This document shows positions 21,037 through 25,374 of a DNA stretch of 25,864 nt, piece after piece. The DNA is from a virus. The notes under the pieces were generated by a model. The model was not told where the DNA came from. It searched no databases and saw only the letters and a program-made list of their open reading frames with translations. The stretch's first letter is position 1, and every line of letters begins with the position of its first letter. The DNA lies in UHGV virus genome UHGV-0869939; one strand, 5' to 3'. Both the position numbers and the translations under genes were made by a program.

Positions 21037-21037
21037 G

Positions 21038-21889
21038 ATGAAAAAAATAAATTTGTTTTTTGGCATAGTGCTTTCAATAGTCTCTGTAAATCCTACAGCT
21101 GCCAGTTCATTGCAATGCAATAAGGATAACTTTGATGCATGCAAAACGTGTGAACAATTATCAAAGGCTATCGACTTAAAAGAACCTAATCGTGGCGATT
21201 ACTATAGAGGGGCTTTATGGAATGGGCTTTACGCCTCTTATGTAATTAATTGCCCTGTGGTTGCTGAGAAGTTACTGAGCCATGGTGCTATACCATCATA
21301 TGGCGGATATATGGGGTCTATGGGGGCGGTTCTGACAGGAAAATGGCCTCATAACAATGAATCAATAAATCTTTCATGGGCAGATTTGCTTATAAAACAT
21401 GGATTTGATGTTAATAGGCATACGGGGAATTATAAATCAGCTACTGAAGTATGGGCTATAGATAAAAAACAGATTGAATATAAGTCAGTTTTTGACAAGT
21501 TAATTCAATCCAGCGAAGTAAAACCACTCGATCCTTCAAGAAATTTAGAATGGTGTGCGTCTGAAGGGTATCGCTCAGTTGTCGTTTATTCCCTTAACTC
21601 ATGTATAGAAAATGCTATAAAACGTTTGGATGATGGTGTTTCTTCAGCGTCTGATATTTCATCAGCAGCCGTAAATTCCTGTACTAGCGATGTAGAAAAT
21701 TTCAATAAGCATTTGGCATGCAAAGCAGCTGTTAAAGAAAACTCTGATAAAGAGAGAAGCGACGTTTACCAGTTATTAACCAGTGATAGTCAAATGAATA
21801 AAAATGTTATTGATATGCTGAAGGAAAGAAATATTGAAACGGTTCTTGAATTTAGAGCTGAAAATCGATCAGCGAAAACTGCACAGTGA
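21038..21889 (+). CDS. AT-rich moron: secreted Cys-rich protein with ankyrin-like repeat signatures
   Basis: 283 aa; signal peptide MKKINLFFGIVLSIVSVNPTAA; 8 Cys; VVAEKLLSHGA and ADLLIKHGFDVNRHTGN resemble ankyrin-repeat consensus; composition visibly more AT-rich than flanking virion genes. Confidence 0.5.
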   Translation: MKKINLFFGIVLSIVSVNPTAASSLQCNKDNFDACKTCEQLSKAIDLKEPNRGDYYRGALWNGLYASYVINCPVVAEKLLSHGAIPSYGGYMGSMGAVLTGKWPHNNESINLSWADLLIKHGFDVNRHTGNYKSATEVWAIDKKQIEYKSVFDKLIQSSEVKPLDPSRNLEWCASEGYRSVVVYSLNSCIENAIKRLDDGVSSASDISSAAVNSCTSDVENFNKHLACKAAVKENSDKERSDVYQLLTSDSQMNKNVIDMLKERNIETVLEFRAENRSAKTAQ

Positions 21890-21895
21890 TCAAAC

Positions 21896-21920
21896 AGGCC
21901 GCTTTCGCGGCCTTGTTTTT
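21896..21920. terminator. Bidirectional rho-independent terminator
   Basis: AAACAGGCCGC-TTTC-GCGGCCTTGTTTTT: GC-rich stem flanked by A-run and T-run, between convergent genes. Confidence 0.6.
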
Positions 21921-22080
21921 AACGAATGCCACCGCCGCCCGGGCGGGAATCCGCAGAACGCCCACCGCAGCGGGAGCCGTCAGCGGCAGTATCGCTGTCG
22001 TGCTGACAACGACCGGCAAAGGCCTGAGTTGAAGCTACCAGAGACAACAAAACGAACAGTGCAGCAAATGCTTTTTTCAT
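21919..22080 (-). CDS. Small exported peptide (53 aa), Gly/Arg/Asp-rich mature part
   Basis: Signal peptide MKKAFAALFVLLSLVASTQAFA then GRCQHDSDTAADGSRCGGRSADSRPGGGGIR; weak RBS; the longer ATG at 22152 has no RBS. Confidence 0.35.
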   Translation of the reverse strand: MKKAFAALFVLLSLVASTQAFAGRCQHDSDTAADGSRCGGRSADSRPGGGGIR

Positions 22081-22161
22081 TGTGAAATTTCCATCTATAA
22101 GCCACCTCAATGTGGCGTCAATGAGTGTAGCACTGACTTTTGTTTCGTCCATAAAAAACTA

Positions 22162-22674
22162 CTATGCAGGCTTTTTGGATTTGTACGAATAATCCCACGG
22201 ATAAACATTTCTACTAAGTGGAGCTGTATTCGTTCGTTCATGAAATAATTTTGTGAAATTCAATACGGAATCCATCCAAACTTTTGCGTTAGCTTTGGTG
22301 TGTGCGGGCGGGTCCCAATAAGCTAGTAAGGCTGCATCTCTTATTTCATTGACTGCATATATGAGATATGCGTTACTGGTTGGTTTTGGCCTGTAATTTC
22401 CTTGTTCATCAATCAATCCATATGACCACTCATCCCAACACTGTTCAGTACATGAGTATGAATATGATGCATATTCACCAATATTGACATGAACCTTTCT
22501 GAGATGGAAGCCTAATACTTCGTCTGGTCTTTCAAAAAGAGTATCTTTTCCCAGATCAGGATGATGACCATGACGCCAGTGTTGTTTAAAAGCATCTTTT
22601 AGCGAAATCAGAAAGTCATCAGTTTTAAACTCACCAGTAGGTATAACCTTCCCGCTATACTCACTCAAAAACAT
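22162..22674 (-). CDS. Hypothetical protein (170 aa), second gene of an operator-controlled two-gene operon
   Basis: Strong AAGGAAGAGG RBS; ATG lies inside the last codons of the upstream gene (14-nt overlap); AT-rich; His-rich HWRHGHH segment; no family recognised. Confidence 0.55.
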   Translation of the reverse strand: MFLSEYSGKVIPTGEFKTDDFLISLKDAFKQHWRHGHHPDLGKDTLFERPDEVLGFHLRKVHVNIGEYASYSYSCTEQCWDEWSYGLIDEQGNYRPKPTSNAYLIYAVNEIRDAALLAYWDPPAHTKANAKVWMDSVLNFTKLFHERTNTAPLSRNVYPWDYSYKSKKPA

Positions 22675-22987
22675 CGAATTCCTCTTCCTTCATATGCGTT
22701 TCTAATGAGTTAAGCTGGCGGAAAGATATCTCTTTTGATTCTGCAGATGAGAGCTTTTTTATCCGCTTGATATTCTTTGTGATAGGAATAGACATTGTAT
22801 GCACATCAGCGGATGCTCTTGGCTTTGTGCTGATAAAAATATGGCGCAATGCCGCATTTTCACTATTGAACGAGCCAATAGCTGATTTACGTGCTACAAC
22901 CTTACCAGTAAAAATACGACTCTTGCTACGCTTTGCATGAGTTCCGCTTCTTACCGGACCTCTCATCACGAATCCAAGTTTTGTCAT
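22661..22987 (-). CDS. Hypothetical basic protein (108 aa), first gene of the two-gene operon
   Basis: GGAG RBS 7 nt before the ATG; putative promoter (-35 TTGCAG, -10 TACTAT) whose -10 abuts the TTACC-N5-GGTAA site; Lys/Arg-rich. Confidence 0.55.
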   Translation of the reverse strand: MTKLGFVMRGPVRSGTHAKRSKSRIFTGKVVARKSAIGSFNSENAALRHIFISTKPRASADVHTMSIPITKNIKRIKKLSSAESKEISFRQLNSLETHMKEEEFDVFE

Positions 22988-23029
22988 CTTTAATCTCCGG
23001 TAAGTTACAGGTATAAAATAAAAACAGGT

Positions 23030-23044
23030 TTACCTTTAAGGTAA
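23030..23044. promoter_or_regulatory. TTACC-N5-GGTAA palindromic site (copy 3 of 6)
   Basis: TTACCTTTAAGGTAA, 43 bp upstream of the 22987 start, immediately after a TACTAT -10-like hexamer on the minus strand. Confidence 0.6.
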
Positions 23045-23078
23045 TAGTACGCTATTCACCCCCGGTCTGCAATCTGTA

Positions 23079-23108
23079 CAGAATTATTTAAAGGCACATC
23101 CCTGTGCC
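23079..23108 (-). terminator. Possible terminator after the antirepressor gene (minus strand)
   Basis: Minus strand GGCACA-GGGA-TGTGCC followed by TTTAAATAATT. Confidence 0.3.
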
Positions 23109-24137: not shown

Positions 24138-24152
24138 TTACCTTTAAGGTAA
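24138..24152. promoter_or_regulatory. TTACC-N5-GGTAA palindromic site (copy 5 of 6)
   Basis: TTACCTTTAAGGTAA, 20 bp upstream of the ATG at 24173, preceded by a GATATT -10-like hexamer. Confidence 0.6.
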
Positions 24153-24172
24153 TGTTATTGTGAGGAAAAGCA

Positions 24173-24853
24173 ATGGAAGTTTTCTGGATAGTTGTTGGTG
24201 TGGTTGCGGTGATTATTTACGTTATCAACCAGAACAAGACTAAGATCTCTGATCGTACGGTCGTTAATCATAACAAAACGATAAAGACCGAAGATGGGGA
24301 GATAACGATTAATCGTACACAGGTGATAGAACACACCTCTACTCAGTTTCAAAAAACTGGAGGTAATGCGCCTAATATTTCCGCACCTCCTGCTTATGAT
24401 AGTGCGATAATCCAGACATATTATAAACAGCAGGAGTTAGCAAAAGAGAGGCAACTGATTCAGCCAAAGCCATTTACAGCTGAGCTTCCACCTGGAGTGT
24501 CAACGCGTCCGGCATATCATGGAAGATTCCCTGGTGATGACACATCGTCTCAGTCACCTAAAAAAGCACCTCAGGCAGTATCAGAGCCAGCAAGAATACC
24601 TTCTGTATCGCCGTCAAAAGAAGAATCATCTAACGAAGTTTCAAGTGCCCGCAAGCAGTGTTTGCGATGCAGAATAACCCTTCCATATGAAAAATTCAGG
24701 AAATCGTCAAAAAATCCAGATGGATTGACTAAGTGGTGTGCAAGGTGTCTCGATGGCCCAAAGAATACACGCCATATGAAGTGGTGCCCAATTTGTAATG
24801 TCCGCAGAAAACGAACCAGTTTTACCCTAATAATCAAAATGCGGATGGCTTAA
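24173..24853 (+). CDS. Membrane-anchored protein with tandem zinc-ribbon-like repeats; reading frame broken near 24802-24805 (probable full extent to 24900)
   Basis: N-terminal TM helix FWIVVGVVAVIIYVI; C-terminal repeat CLRC...FRKSSKNPDGLTKWCARC; a second copy (CPIC...NQFYPNNQNADGLMAWCKTCW) continues in the +2 frame and ends at TAG 24898-24900, right at a terminator. Confidence 0.5.
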   Translation: MEVFWIVVGVVAVIIYVINQNKTKISDRTVVNHNKTIKTEDGEITINRTQVIEHTSTQFQKTGGNAPNISAPPAYDSAIIQTYYKQQELAKERQLIQPKPFTAELPPGVSTRPAYHGRFPGDDTSSQSPKKAPQAVSEPARIPSVSPSKEESSNEVSSARKQCLRCRITLPYEKFRKSSKNPDGLTKWCARCLDGPKNTRHMKWCPICNVRRKRTSFTLIIKMRMA

Positions 24854-24899
24854 TGGCATGGTGCAAAACGTGCTGGGACGAGCACAAAGCGAAACGATA

Positions 24900-24925
24900 G
24901 GCCGCTCTTGCGGCCTTTTCTTTAT
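24900..24925. terminator. Bidirectional rho-independent terminator
   Basis: GGCCGC-TCTT-GCGGCC followed by TTTTCTTTAT; lies between convergent genes. Confidence 0.6.
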
Positions 24926-25179
24926 GTGGTTTGTTTTCGTAGTTGTTCGGCACAATAGTCGAGATGTGTTTGCAGATCCTGCATAGACATCTGTGAGCTG
25001 GTGACGTAGTTAATCAGTGCAGTCAGTTCGGCAAGTGGGCCATCGACATTAAATCCATCCTTATCGAGATCCCGGAGTAATTTCATCAAGTGCGATCCCT
25101 CCACCAGTGACCTGACGCCTCCCGGCGTGTGAATCCTTTCGGTAAATCCGTCTTCCAGTGGATAGTGATACTGCTGCAT
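24922..25179 (-). CDS. Small protein homologous to the antirepressor C-terminal domain; candidate SOS-induced antirepressor or immunity modulator
   Basis: 85 aa from the ATG at 25179 with GGAGAAG RBS; the upstream in-frame ATGs at 25302/25281 would place the LexA box and the operator inside the coding sequence; aligns with residues about 130-218 of the 23117..23773 product. Confidence 0.55.
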   Translation of the reverse strand: MQQYHYPLEDGFTERIHTPGGVRSLVEGSHLMKLLRDLDKDGFNVDGPLAELTALINYVTSSQMSMQDLQTHLDYCAEQLRKQTT

Positions 25180-25198
25180 CTTATCTTCTCCATGCAAT

Positions 25199-25218
25199 AA
25201 CTGTATATTTATACAGTA
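25199..25218. promoter_or_regulatory. LexA (SOS) box
   Basis: AACTGTATATTTATACAGTA, CTGT-N8-ACAG core, near-identical to the enterobacterial consensus TACTGTATATATATACAGTA; 20-40 bp upstream of the ATG at 25179, overlapping a TATAAAT -10-like element. Confidence 0.7.
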
Positions 25219-25255
25219 ACAAATAATTTGTTTGCTATCCAGCACGTTTTGCAAA

Positions 25256-25270
25256 TTACCCGAAAGGTAA
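25256..25270. promoter_or_regulatory. TTACC-N5-GGTAA palindromic site (copy 6 of 6)
   Basis: TTACCCGAAAGGTAA between the divergent small antirepressor-domain gene and the tail-fibre gene, about 105 bp upstream of the tail-fibre ATG. Confidence 0.6.
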
Positions 25271-25374
25271 TATCTATTCATATTCACAGTCTTTCTATCC
25301 ATATATGGTTTTTTGGGTAATAGAATAACCAGATATGCGGCGCAACGGGTGCTGCGACTATCTGGAGATTTAAC

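What the first reader, a model, noticed from the sequence alone, without database searches (positions are those of the whole stretch)
21037..25374. About 4.3 kb accessory island between the gp16-like gene and the tail-fibre gene
In T7-like modules the tail fibre normally follows gp16 directly. Here seven genes of mixed orientation and composition intervene, separated by bidirectional terminators and controlled by the TTACC-N5-GGTAA sites and a LexA box. This is the most likely place in the window for an undescribed host-interaction, exclusion or counter-defence system.
Basis: partly seen in the sequence, partly recalled or inferred. Interest (0 to 1): 0.75.

Follow-up and report, generated by a model that had tools for sequence, protein, structure and literature searches.

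The report
Antirepressor hotspot of an epsilon15-like prophage
The 4.3-kb stretch is the variable "antirepressor locus" of an epsilon15/SPC32H-type prophage: it holds a known SOS-triggered induction switch, a known kind of antisense-RNA-controlled second antirepressor and a few loose cargo genes, so it is mostly ordinary, not one new system.

Summary
The island is real. It holds seven protein genes (+ - - - - + -) between the last internal-virion protein gene and the tailspike gene. GC is 37-50%. It has two GC-rich terminators, four exact TTACC-N5-GGTAA sites and one near-perfect LexA box.

The phage is epsilon15/SPC32H-like (Uetakevirus type), not T7. TTACC-N5-GGTAA is the phage-wide Rep operator, already annotated as such in the epsilon15 record. 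The LexA-boxed 85-aa gene is 88% identical to SPC32H Ant (PDB 5D50), the known SOS-controlled antirepressor.

The "ORF" at 23801-24133 is really an IsrK-like leader plus a P1-type c4 antisense RNA. Its two loops pair with the ribosome-binding site of a 218-aa antirepressor, an AntA domain fused to an Ant-like domain. Across 57 related leaders the loops and their targets co-vary.

The remaining cargo is:
- a borderline YafO-like toxin with a 108-aa partner behind a Rep operator;
- a 53-aa secreted moron;
- a 283-aa periplasmic helical protein;
- a frameshifted membrane-anchored zinc-ribbon protein.

In 70 relatives the junction holds 0.65-6.5 kb of shuffled cassettes, and only ant is constant. 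This is a known hotspot with known circuits and several genes of unknown function. Interest is modest.

The parts
17647..21036 (+). Left anchor: last large internal-virion (ejection) protein, 1129 aa
   Evidence: ORF. Syntenic with the last virion protein of EC.W1-9, 21481-24870. The C-terminus is 99-100% identical in 22 IMG/VR loci.
21038..21889 (+). p283: signal-peptide protein, all-alpha, low GC, appended to the end of the late operon. Function unknown.
21896..21913 (+). GC-rich hairpin terminator between the convergent p283 and p53 genes
   Evidence: Terminator scan, 7 pairs, 6 of them GC, tail TGTTTTT.
21919..22080 (-). p53: 53-aa secreted or membrane-associated small protein (moron)
   Evidence: phrog_14503 'membrane associated protein', E 2e-40. 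Present in 38 of 70 loci. No Rep operator lies upstream. A TTGACG-16-TATAGA promoter-like site was read by eye in the sequence (inference).
22162..22674 (-). YafO-like putative toxin, 170 aa
   Evidence: Pfam PF13957 at 19.7 bits, below the cut-off of 25. A 32%-identical paralogue in the same hotspot passes at 25.9 bits. NCBI names homologues 'YafO family toxin'.
22661..22987 (-). p108: upstream partner (putative antitoxin), overlapping the toxin gene by 14 nt
   Evidence: phrog_5933. The pair and the overlap are conserved in Serratia and Salmonella prophages. The family is tiny, 8 representatives in 1.8 billion proteins. The C-terminal 30 aa are conserved and the middle is variable.
23030..23044 (.). 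Rep operator O1 (TTACCTTTAAGGTAA), upstream of the p108/YafO-like bicistron
   Evidence: An operator is conserved 40-55 nt upstream of the partner ATG in Serratia and Salmonella loci.
23117..23773 (-). Long antirepressor, 218 aa: AntA N-terminal domain fused to an SPC32H-Ant-like C-terminal domain (residues 137-213)
   Evidence: Pfam AntA, E 4e-26. C-terminus against 5d50_E, E 8e-14. It is 42% identical to the window's own Ant. phrog_377 'anti-repressor Ant'.
23781..23819 (-). c4 targets b2 (UUGGUCU, 23819-23813) and a2 (CUAAGUGG, 23791-23784). a2 overlaps the antA Shine-Dalgarno GGAGA (23785-23781).
   Evidence: Sequence. Complementarity and covariation.
23823..23907 (-). c4 antisense RNA, with loops a' CCACUUAG (23866-23859) and b' AGACCAA (23851-23845)
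   Evidence: Rfam RF01695, 61.2 bits against a gathering score of 45. Fold energy -41.2 kcal/mol, z = -5.5, with a' and b' unpaired.
23932..24021 (-). IsrK-like leader holding the upstream targets b1 (23983-23977) and a1 (23967-23960) and a terminator (23954-23938)
   Evidence: Rfam isrK RF01394, 67.7 bits against 50. c4-a1b1 RF03163 scores 39.9, below its gathering score of 46.7. Terminator.
24015..24043 (-). Conserved promoter-like site TTTACA-17-(TG)CATAGT. The predicted transcription start, about 24008, coincides with IsrK model position 1.
   Evidence: Nearly invariant across 57 leader variants.
24045..24059 (.). Rep operator O2 (TTACCGCAAAGGTAA). It lies 1 nt upstream of the -35 of the IsrK promoter and abuts the -10-like TATCAT of an upstream promoter-like site (24088-24059).
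24138..24152 (.). Rep operator O3 (TTACCTTTAAGGTAA), 21 nt upstream of the p226 start codon
24173..24900 (+). Membrane-anchored protein with a tandem zinc ribbon (normally 242 aa). Here a 1-nt deletion in a T-run near 24816-24820 stops the frame at 24853, giving 226 aa.
   Evidence: phrog_6762, positions 1-218 of 242. Comparison with L082. Family alignment shows an N-terminal transmembrane segment, a variable proline-rich linker and two CxxC...WCxxC motifs.
24899..24916 (+). GC-rich hairpin terminator between the convergent p226 and ant genes
24922..25179 (-). ant: SPC32H-type small antirepressor, 85 aa
   Evidence: 5d50_E 'Anti-repressor protein', E 1.3e-47. 88% identical to SPC32H ant. Present in 70 of 70 loci.
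25201..25216 (.). LexA box CTGTATATTTATACAG over the ant promoter region
   Evidence: A CTGT-N8-ACAG box is present in the island of 69 of 70 loci and upstream of ant in epsilon15, phiV10, TL-2011b and EC.W1-9.
25256..25270 (.). Rep operator O4 (TTACCCGAAAGGTAA), between the divergent ant and tailspike genes
   Evidence: The equivalent site at 19895-19911 is annotated 'protein_bind repressor' in epsilon15.
25375..25864 (+). Right anchor: tailspike N-terminal (head-binding) domain. Relative to relatives it is frameshifted near 25681.

Best explanation
The stretch is the variable antirepressor locus of an epsilon15/SPC32H-type temperate podovirus prophage. It is a recombination hotspot between the last internal-virion protein gene and the tailspike gene.

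Conserved core. The core is ant with a LexA box and a Rep operator. The proposed chain is: DNA damage leads to LexA cleavage; Ant is then made; Ant binds the phage repressor Rep and takes it off its TTACC-N5-GGTAA operators, which stand in front of essentially every phage operon; the prophage is induced. Shown here: homology, the LexA box and the operator map. The biochemical steps come from the SPC32H literature.

Five independent cassettes make up the other roughly 3.8 kb:
1. A P1-immI / Gifsy-1-IsrK-type module. A Rep-flanked promoter drives a leader with targets a1 and b1 and a leaky terminator (the IsrK-like short RNA), then the c4 antisense RNA, then targets a2 and b2 over the ribosome-binding site of a 218-aa antirepressor. 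That protein's C-terminal domain is a paralogue of Ant. c4 loops a' and b' pair with a2 and b2 and block translation, while the a1/b1 leader competes for c4. Shown here: the RNA family hits, the complementarity and the covariation. Inferred: the translational block, and that the C-terminal domain binds Rep.
2. A Rep-operated bicistron of a 108-aa partner and a YafO-like putative mRNA-interferase toxin. Inferred: it is a toxin-antitoxin-like pair that is switched on when Rep is removed.
3. A 53-aa secreted moron with no Rep operator upstream, which may have its own promoter.
4. A 283-aa periplasmic helical protein co-transcribed with the late genes.
5. A membrane-anchored double zinc-ribbon protein, which is frameshifted in this window.

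The functions of cassettes 3 to 5 are unknown.
For: Phage identity:
- The island and flanks match phiV10, TL-2011b, EC.W1-9 and phiv142-3.
- The capsid is Pfam GP7 of epsilon15.

Ant:
- E 1.3e-47 to PDB 5d50_E.
- The gene is annotated 'ant' at the same position in SPC32H.
- The LexA box is conserved in 69 of 70 loci.

Rep and its operators:
- Six exact sites in the window against 0.02 expected.
- The same motif occurs 8-11 times genome-wide in phiV10, EC.W1-9 and epsilon15, including the repressor/cro intergenic region.
- Seven of the epsilon15 sites are annotated as repressor binding sites.
- The Rep of the relatives is homologous to SPC32H Rep (5d50_A, E 4e-42). It has HTH domains but no S24 peptidase hit.

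c4 module:
- Rfam C4 scores 61.2 and isrK 67.7 bits, both above gathering.
- The same pair is found in phiV10, TL-2011b, EC.W1-9 and in Salmonella and Serratia prophages.
- a' and b' are unpaired in the fold.
- There are 8-nt and 7-nt perfect duplexes to a1/a2 and b1/b2, and a2 lies over the Shine-Dalgarno sequence.
- Four a' alleles and two b' alleles co-vary with both targets in 57 unique leaders.

Long antirepressor:
- AntA domain, E 4e-26.
- Ant-like C-terminal domain.
- Overexpressing the Bro-N antirepressor of the same locus in phage vB_EcoP_ZX5 lowered lysogens about 1000-fold (PMC9782041).
- IsrK-AnrP in Gifsy-1 has been characterised experimentally (PMC4825925).

Cassette behaviour:
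- Each gene is independently present or absent in the 80 loci.
Against: - The Rep gene itself is not in the window, so the cognate repressor is inferred from relatives.
- No expression data are available.
- The YafO assignment is below Pfam's cut-off for the window protein (19.7 against 25 bits), and its structure prediction failed (pLDDT 39).
- No clear sigma-70 promoter was found for the p108/YafO-like operon, so how operator O1 acts there is unclear.
- The geometry of O2 (centred about -44 from the predicted IsrK start) does not say whether Rep represses or activates that promoter.
- The P1 icd-like coupling ORF is absent.
- Two frameshifts, in p226 and in the tailspike, suggest either a decaying prophage or sequencing errors.
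Confidence: 0.85

Rival explanations
1. One reading: the seven genes form one undescribed host-interaction, exclusion or counter-defence system, controlled jointly by the TTACC-N5-GGTAA sites and the LexA box.
For: - Four of the seven proteins have no known function.
- Three transcription units in the island carry the same palindrome.
- The composition differs from the structural genes.
Against: - The palindrome is the phage-wide Rep operator. It also stands upstream of the small terminase gene, the portal operon, the repressor/cro region and the replication region.
- The genes occur in nearly all combinations in 70 relatives, and only ant is constant.
- Three of the genes are identifiable as lysis-lysogeny regulators or a toxin-like pair.
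- There are no PADLOC hits.
Confidence: 0.05
2. At least one unknown cargo gene encodes a new superinfection-exclusion, envelope-protection or anti-phage function that benefits the lysogen. The candidates are p283 (periplasmic), p53 (secreted), the membrane zinc-ribbon protein, and the p108/YafO-like pair. This does not exclude the best explanation.
For: - Signal peptides or membrane anchors are present.
- p53 has no Rep operator upstream. A possible own promoter (TTGACG-16-TATAGA) was read by eye in the sequence.
- In Salmonella relatives the slot taken by p283 holds a Rap1a T6SS-immunity-family gene.
- By position the locus is analogous to P22 sieA/immI (own knowledge).
Against: - No homology to any known defence or exclusion protein.
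- p283 is tightly linked to one type of virion protein and has no promoter of its own, so it may be a late-function gene.
- The p108/YafO-like operon and the zinc-ribbon gene sit behind Rep operators, which argues for silence in the lysogen.
- The zinc-ribbon gene is frameshifted here.
Confidence: 0.3
3. The locus is a P22-type immI region, in which Mnt and Arc repressors and the sar antisense RNA control Ant.
For: - The position between ejection-protein genes and the tailspike gene is the same as in P22 (own knowledge).
- The relative TL-2011b carries an Arc-like gene, a P22-like Ant and an Rfam sar RNA hit in this very hotspot. Eight of the 70 loci with both anchors do so too.
Against: - The window has no Arc-, Mnt- or P22-Ant-like gene.
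- The window has no sar hit.
- Its antisense RNA is c4 of the P1 type.
Confidence: 0.02

Closest known systems
SPC32H Rep-Ant-LexA antirepression switch (Salmonella Uetakevirus SPC32H; Kim & Ryu 2013, J Virol 87:11775; PDB 5D50/5D4Z)
   Same: - The 85-aa protein is 88% identical to SPC32H Ant.
- It has the same position and orientation next to the tailspike gene.
- A LexA box lies over its promoter region.
- The Rep of the closest complete relatives is a full-length homologue of SPC32H Rep.
- The Rep operator palindrome lies between ant and the tailspike gene.
   Different: - SPC32H has the minimal locus: one small membrane-protein gene plus ant.
- This window carries about 3.8 kb of extra cassettes, including a second antirepressor with an Ant-like domain.
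- The Rep gene is outside the window.
P1/P7 immI (c4 antisense RNA, icd, ant; own knowledge: Citron & Schuster 1990; Heinrich, Velleman & Schuster 1995)
   Same: - The order is a1 b1, then c4, then a2 b2, then the antirepressor gene.
- Two c4 loops pair with targets over a ribosome-binding site.
- Allelic loop/target pairs define specificity, as between P1 and P7.
- An operator of the main repressor sits at the promoter, and two tandem promoter-like sites are present.
   Different: - There is no icd-like coupling ORF. a2 covers the antirepressor's own Shine-Dalgarno sequence.
- The repressor is SPC32H-type Rep, not C1.
- The antirepressor is an AntA/Ant-like fusion unrelated to P1 Ant1/2.
- The host phage is an integrating podovirus.
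Gifsy-1 IsrK-orf45-AnrP (PMC4825925)
   Same: - The leader matches Rfam isrK above the gathering score.
- A leaky terminator is followed by an antirepressor gene.
- The full leader is predicted to pair internally (a1 with a', b1 with b'), like 'structure A' of that paper.
   Different: - The Gifsy-1 work describes IsrK as an activator acting in trans through orf45. It does not invoke c4.
- Here a full c4 model hit lies between the leader and the gene.
- The prophage type is different.
P22 immI / sieA region between gene 16 and gene 9 (own knowledge)
   Same: - The position in a temperate podovirus is analogous: after the ejection-protein genes and before the tailspike gene.
- It holds an antirepressor under its own secondary immunity control, plus accessory genes.
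   Different: - The window has no mnt, arc, sar or sieA homologues.
- Control is by LexA, Rep and c4 RNA instead.
E. coli YafN-YafO type II toxin-antitoxin pair of the SOS-regulated dinB operon (own knowledge; Pfam PF13957)
   Same: - A weak full-length match to the YafO profile.
- A small upstream gene that overlaps the toxin gene.
- Expression is ultimately coupled to the SOS response, here through Ant and Rep.
   Different: - The score is below Pfam's cut-off.
- The partner is not YafN/Phd-like and belongs to a tiny family of its own.
- The palindrome at the promoter is the phage Rep operator.
- Toxicity has not been tested.

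Membership tests
SPC32H-type LexA-controlled small antirepressor (Ant) | Sequence homology to SPC32H Ant over the full length | tested here: met
   5d50_E, E 1.3e-47, residues 2-85 against 3-86. 88% identity to the SPC32H ant gene.
SPC32H-type LexA-controlled small antirepressor (Ant) | LexA box overlapping the ant promoter | tested here: met
   CTGTATATTTATACAG at 25201-25216, 22 nt upstream of the ATG. Conserved in 69 of 70 loci and in epsilon15, phiV10, TL-2011b and EC.W1-9. The promoter hexamers themselves are only inferred.
SPC32H-type LexA-controlled small antirepressor (Ant) | A cognate non-cleavable Rep of SPC32H type in the same phage | tested here: inconclusive
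   The Rep gene is not in the window. In the closest complete relatives, Rep matches 5d50_A at E 4e-42 and shows HTH domains without an S24 peptidase domain. Its operators are present in the window.
SPC32H-type LexA-controlled small antirepressor (Ant) | Ant binds Rep and induces the prophage | not testable with these tools
   Needs a binding assay and an induction assay.
P1/P7-type c4 antisense RNA immunity module (Rfam C4, c4-a1b1, isrK) | c4 RNA matching the covariance model at or above the gathering score | tested here: met
   RF01695, 61.2 bits against 45, model positions 1-87.
P1/P7-type c4 antisense RNA immunity module (Rfam C4, c4-a1b1, isrK) | Two c4 loops complementary to targets over the ribosome-binding site of the downstream gene, and to an upstream copy | tested here: met
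   a' with a1 and a2: 8 nt. b' with b1 and b2: 7 nt. All are perfect duplexes, and a2 covers GGAGA. Four a' and two b' alleles co-vary with both targets in 57 leaders.
P1/P7-type c4 antisense RNA immunity module (Rfam C4, c4-a1b1, isrK) | Upstream a1/b1 element recognised by a model | tested here: met
   isrK RF01394, 67.7 bits against 50. The overlapping c4-a1b1 model reaches only 39.9 against 46.7.
P1/P7-type c4 antisense RNA immunity module (Rfam C4, c4-a1b1, isrK) | An icd-like ORF translationally coupled to ant | tested here: not met
   No ORF of 30 aa or more ends at the antA start. a2 overlaps antA's own Shine-Dalgarno sequence. This is a variant of the P1 arrangement.
P1/P7-type c4 antisense RNA immunity module (Rfam C4, c4-a1b1, isrK) | The downstream gene is an antirepressor | tested here: met
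   Pfam AntA, E 4e-26. The C-terminal domain is homologous to SPC32H Ant. Activity itself was not tested.
YafO family type II toxin (PF13957) with antitoxin | Match to the YafO_toxin profile above Pfam's gathering score | tested here: not met
   19.7 bits against 25, E 9.5e-4, covering profile positions 7-100 of 101. A 32%-identical paralogue from the same hotspot passes at 25.9 bits. No NCBIfam hit.
YafO family type II toxin (PF13957) with antitoxin | A small upstream partner gene that overlaps the toxin gene and is conserved with it | tested here: met
   The 14-nt overlap and the pairing with a 104-108-aa partner are kept in E. coli, Serratia and Salmonella.
YafO family type II toxin (PF13957) with antitoxin | The partner belongs to the YafN/Phd antitoxin family | tested here: not met
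   No Pfam or NCBIfam hit for p108. It forms its own small family.
YafO family type II toxin (PF13957) with antitoxin | Toxicity that is neutralised by the partner; RelE-like fold | not testable with these tools
   The AlphaFold2 model was unusable (pLDDT 39.3). No PDB sequence hit.
P22 immI (mnt, arc, sar, ant) | Arc and Mnt ribbon-helix-helix repressors and the sar antisense RNA | tested here: not met
   No tblastn hit to TL-2011b Arc, Mnt-like or Ant proteins beyond the shared C-terminal piece. No sar hit in the window.
   The nearest relatives are the temperate Uetakevirus-type phages phiV10, TL-2011b, EC.W1-9 and SPC32H, which carry an integrase and a repressor. The capsid is epsilon15 GP7. 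Only the portal family (PF12236) is shared with T7.

The most novel reading that the evidence does not exclude
The long antirepressor cassette could be a second, SOS-independent route to Rep inactivation that carries an RNA 'barcode'.
- A swappable N-terminal domain (AntA, Bro-N, pRha) is fused to an SPC32H-Ant-like domain that binds Rep.
- It is kept untranslated by a c4 RNA. The two recognition loops of c4 exist in at least 4 x 2 co-varying alleles, among prophages that share a 98-100% identical Ant.
- On this reading c4 alleles, rather than Rep, decide whether a superinfecting relative is treated as kin. Prophages with two or three cassettes would keep them orthogonal.
- In addition, the Rep-operated p108/YafO-like pair could be an effector released only when Rep is removed.
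Probability: 0.3. Interest if true: 0.5.

Novelty: new member of a known kind. Interest (0 to 1): 0.3.

Why it matters
The result turns a block of "hypothetical proteins", present in part in 891 of 5426 complete E. coli genomes, into a readable control region.
- It names the SOS switch (Ant with its LexA box).
- It identifies the operators through which one repressor holds every operon.
- It identifies an unannotated antisense RNA that gates a second antirepressor.

The covariation of the c4 loops with both of their targets gives a ready set of natural specificity variants. These could be used to test RNA-based heteroimmunity in a podovirus.

The remaining cargo genes are defined candidates for lysogen phenotypes. 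Nothing here points to a new kind of system.

Tried and rejected
- PADLOC: no hit for any of the seven proteins.
- NCBIfam: nothing meaningful.
- AlphaFold2 of the YafO-like protein, from a 10-sequence alignment: pLDDT 39.3, unusable, so no fold search was run on it.
- The afdb50 library was not available.
- Profile searches of the p283, zinc-ribbon and YafO-like families against PDB sequences found nothing significant.
- I tested whether the long antirepressor's C-terminal domain is more similar to the Ant of its own genome than to Ants of other lineages, which would indicate co-adaptation. It is not: identity is 26-47% throughout.
- I checked whether co-resident c4 cassettes always differ in allele. 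They do in all 6 multi-cassette loci. By my own hand estimate from the allele counts, the chance of this is about 0.17, so it is not significant.
- Three key papers are not in the held library: the epsilon15 genome paper, Kim & Ryu 2013 and Kim et al. 2016. What I say about SPC32H biochemistry rests on my own knowledge and on summaries in PMC9638917 and PMC7380047.
- I could not assign convincing sigma-70 hexamers to the p108/YafO-like, p226 or tailspike promoters.

Full report
**1. The observation**

The stretch 21037-25374 is bounded by the stop codon of a 1129-aa gene (17647-21036, +) and the start of a tailspike-like gene (25375, +). Seven plausible protein genes lie between them, oriented + - - - - + -.

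GC falls to 0.37-0.43 at the left end. It is 0.48-0.50 over the 218-aa gene and 0.40-0.46 to the right, against about 0.50 in the structural genes.

Two GC-rich hairpins with T-tracts stand at the two convergent gene junctions, at 21896-21913 and 24899-24916.

TTACC-N5-GGTAA occurs exactly six times in the window where 0.02 are expected. Four of these sites are in the island. A near-consensus LexA box, CTGTATATTTATACAG, lies at 25201-25216.

**2. What phage this is**

The island and its flanks match the temperate podoviruses phiV10, TL-2011b, EC.W1-9, phiv142-3 and vB_EcoP_ZX5. Gene order is colinear with them and with epsilon15. The capsid protein belongs to the epsilon15 GP7 family. The portal belongs to the family shared with T7.

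The 'T7-like' premise is thus only distantly right. In this group the tailspike gene never follows the last internal-virion gene directly. Epsilon15 has gp18 and gp19 there. SPC32H has a small membrane-protein gene and ant.

**3. The palindrome**

In complete genomes of relatives the same TTACC-N5-GGTAA motif occurs 8-11 times. It is found:
- upstream of the small terminase gene;
- upstream of the portal operon;
- in this island;
- on both sides of the repressor gene, including the repressor/cro intergenic region;
- after the replication genes.

In the epsilon15 RefSeq record, seven of these sites are annotated 'protein_bind: repressor, lysogeny'. Their sequences are ATTACC-N5-GGTAAT. The motif is therefore the phage-wide operator of the main repressor, not an island-specific control element.

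The repressor of EC.W1-9 and phiV10 is a full-length homologue of SPC32H Rep (5d50_A, E 4e-42). It has HTH domains and no S24 peptidase hit. The repressor gene lies outside the window.

**4. The LexA-boxed gene**

Read from the ATG at 25179, the gene encodes 85 aa. The protein matches 'Anti-repressor protein' chain E of PDB 5D50 at E 1.3e-47. It is 88% identical to the gene annotated ant in SPC32H, at the same position next to the tailspike gene.

From my own knowledge (Kim & Ryu 2013; Kim et al. 2016), and from the summaries in PMC7380047 and PMC9638917:
- SPC32H Rep is not cleaved during the SOS response;
- LexA represses ant;
- Ant, a tetramer, binds Rep and breaks up the DNA-bound Rep tetramer.

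The LexA box is present in 69 of 70 related islands. It is also upstream of ant in epsilon15, phiV10, TL-2011b and EC.W1-9. This part of the island is a known system.

**5. The non-coding 400 bp upstream of the 218-aa gene**

Rfam finds three elements on the minus strand:
- an isrK match at 23932-24008 (67.7 bits against a gathering score of 50);
- a C4 antisense RNA match at 23823-23907 (61.2 against 45);
- a sub-threshold c4-a1b1 match.

The c4 RNA folds into a long stem with two inner elements (-41.2 kcal/mol, z = -5.5). This leaves CCACUUAG (a') and AGACCAA (b') unpaired.

Perfect complements occur twice. CUAAGUGG and UUGGUCU occur once in the IsrK-like leader (a1, b1). They occur again just upstream of the 218-aa gene (b2 and a2), where a2 overlaps its Shine-Dalgarno GGAGA.

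I collected the same region from 80 IMG/VR prophage contigs that carry a 98-100% identical Ant, which yielded 57 distinct leaders. They carry four a' alleles and two b' alleles. In essentially every case a1, a2, b1 and b2 have changed to match, giving 7-9-nt duplexes. This three-way covariation is strong comparative evidence that the pairings are used.

The arrangement is that of P1/P7 immI (own knowledge). The leader is the family studied as IsrK in Gifsy-1. There, terminator read-through gives a translationally inactive antirepressor mRNA, and IsrK supplied in trans activates translation 140-fold (PMC4825925). That behaviour fits a1/b1 acting as a competitor for c4. This last link is my inference.

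A promoter-like site, TTTACA-17-(TG)CATAGT, predicts a start at about 24008, which is position 1 of the isrK model. It is nearly invariant in all leaders. Operator O2 lies 1 nt upstream of its -35. O2 also abuts a -10-like hexamer of an upstream promoter-like site. Tandem promoters of this kind recall P1 P51a/P51b (inference).

**6. The 218-aa protein**

It has an AntA domain (E 4e-26). Its C-terminal 80 residues are homologous to Ant: 42% identity to the window's own Ant and E 8e-14 to 5d50_E.

In the survey this C-terminal domain is 92-100% conserved, while the N-terminal domain is exchanged between AntA and several Bro-N types. In Serratia a pRha type is found.

In vB_EcoP_ZX5, overexpressing the Bro-N antirepressor from this locus lowered lysogens about 1000-fold (PMC9782041).

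I infer that the C-terminal domain binds Rep as Ant does. This would give the phage a second antirepressor, gated by c4 RNA and Rep rather than by LexA.

**7. The toxin-like pair**

The 170-aa protein matches Pfam YafO_toxin over the whole profile, but below the cut-off (19.7 against 25 bits). A 32%-identical paralogue from the same hotspot, of the TL-2011b type, passes at 25.9 bits. NCBI names homologues 'YafO family toxin'.

The toxin-like protein is always preceded by a 104-108-aa partner that overlaps it by 14 nt. This holds in E. coli, Serratia and Salmonella, always in this same prophage locus. The partner family is tiny. It has a conserved C-terminal 30 residues and a variable middle.

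A Rep operator is conserved 40-55 nt upstream of the partner's ATG across genera. The pair is therefore probably silent in the lysogen and released on induction. Structure prediction failed.

**8. The other cargo**

- p283 has a signal peptide and conserved cysteines. The model is all-alpha with moderate confidence and has no convincing structural neighbour. Its homologues, down to 40% identity in Morganella, always directly follow the 1129-1131-aa virion gene. It may be a late function linked to that protein rather than a free moron.
- p53 is a 53-aa secreted peptide (phrog_14503), found in 38 of 70 loci.
- The 226-aa ORF is a truncated copy of a 242-aa family. That family has an N-terminal membrane anchor, a variable proline-rich linker and two CxxC...WCxxC zinc ribbons.

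**9. The hotspot**

Of the 80 loci, 70 have both anchors. The distance between the anchors ranges from 648 bp to 6505 bp. Only ant is constant, and every other gene is present or absent independently. One contig, L082, has the same seven genes at 98.7% identity.

Some relatives, of the TL-2011b type, carry in addition a P22-type Arc/sar/Ant module in the same place.

In complete E. coli genomes, 891 of 5426 hold part of the island. Only five hold 80% or more of it.

**10. Verdict**

About half of it, however, is a known lysis-lysogeny control circuit, the control sites are phage-wide, and the genes do not form one system. All seven proteins already have PHROG families, and none matches known defence models.

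The stretch is a new member of known kinds. The most interesting detail is the c4-gated antirepressor carrying an Ant-like domain, together with the natural set of co-varying c4 alleles.

Noticed in passing
window 24816-24820: Compared with the near-identical contig L082 and with the 242-aa family, one T is missing from a T-run. This truncates the zinc-ribbon protein to 226 aa and removes its last CxxC. It is either a pseudogene or a sequencing error.
   Followed up: partly
window 25675-25690: The tailspike reading frame shifts near 25681. The window reads GAAGTTCCATGAGG where L082 reads GAAGTGCATGAAG. The ORF stops at 25686 and continues in frame +1. If the change is real, the prophage is defective for adsorption.
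   Followed up: partly
window 25821-25864: The last 44 bases no longer align with L082, although the tailspike N-terminal domain does up to 25820. This probably marks the boundary between the conserved head-binding domain and a different receptor-binding module.
   Followed up: no
window 5180-5256 (-): A tRNA-Arg (anticodon TCT) gene lies between the terminase genes and the portal operon of the prophage.
   Followed up: no
window 2401-2412 and 4669-4680: The 12-bp palindrome GTGACATGTCAC occurs twice against 0.07 expected. One copy is just upstream of the small terminase gene and the other just downstream of the large terminase gene. It could be a regulator or packaging site.
   Followed up: no
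window 2491-2505, 2509-2523, 5579-5593: Rep operators stand directly upstream of the small terminase gene (one exact site plus one with a single mismatch) and upstream of the portal operon. Sites at the same places are annotated as repressor-binding sites in epsilon15. This suggests that Rep represses the late operons directly.
   Followed up: partly
L001 (TL-2011b) 2216-3953 and 5129-6057: TL-2011b carries two antirepressor modules in the one hotspot. One is P22-type: an Mnt-like gene (my reading; the record annotates it only as a hypothetical protein), an Arc-like gene, an Rfam sar RNA hit and Ant. The other is P1/IsrK-type, with c4 and a Bro-N antirepressor.
   Followed up: partly
L043, L037, L051, L070, L074, L077 (IMG/VR loci): Six prophages carry two or three c4-antirepressor cassettes. 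Within each prophage the cassettes always differ in the a' or b' allele. By my own hand estimate from the allele counts, the chance of this is about 0.17, so it is suggestive only.
   Followed up: partly
L091 and L092, 6557-6940: In two relatives recovered through a Salmonella-named homologue, from metagenome assemblies, the slot after the last virion gene holds a gene with a Rap1a (T6SS immunity protein) domain. That is the slot taken by p283 in the window.
   Followed up: no
L004 (phiV10) 19551-20230: The phiV10 Bro-N antirepressor (194 aa) loses similarity to the Ant-like domain part-way through and is followed by a tiny ORF. It looks C-terminally truncated by a frameshift compared with relatives.
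   Followed up: no
window 5049-5064 and 9591-9606: Two further CTGT-N8-ACAG matches are conserved at the same relative positions in phiV10 and EC.W1-9. Their AT-poor spacers make LexA binding unlikely, and the conservation is probably due to coding sequence.
   Followed up: no
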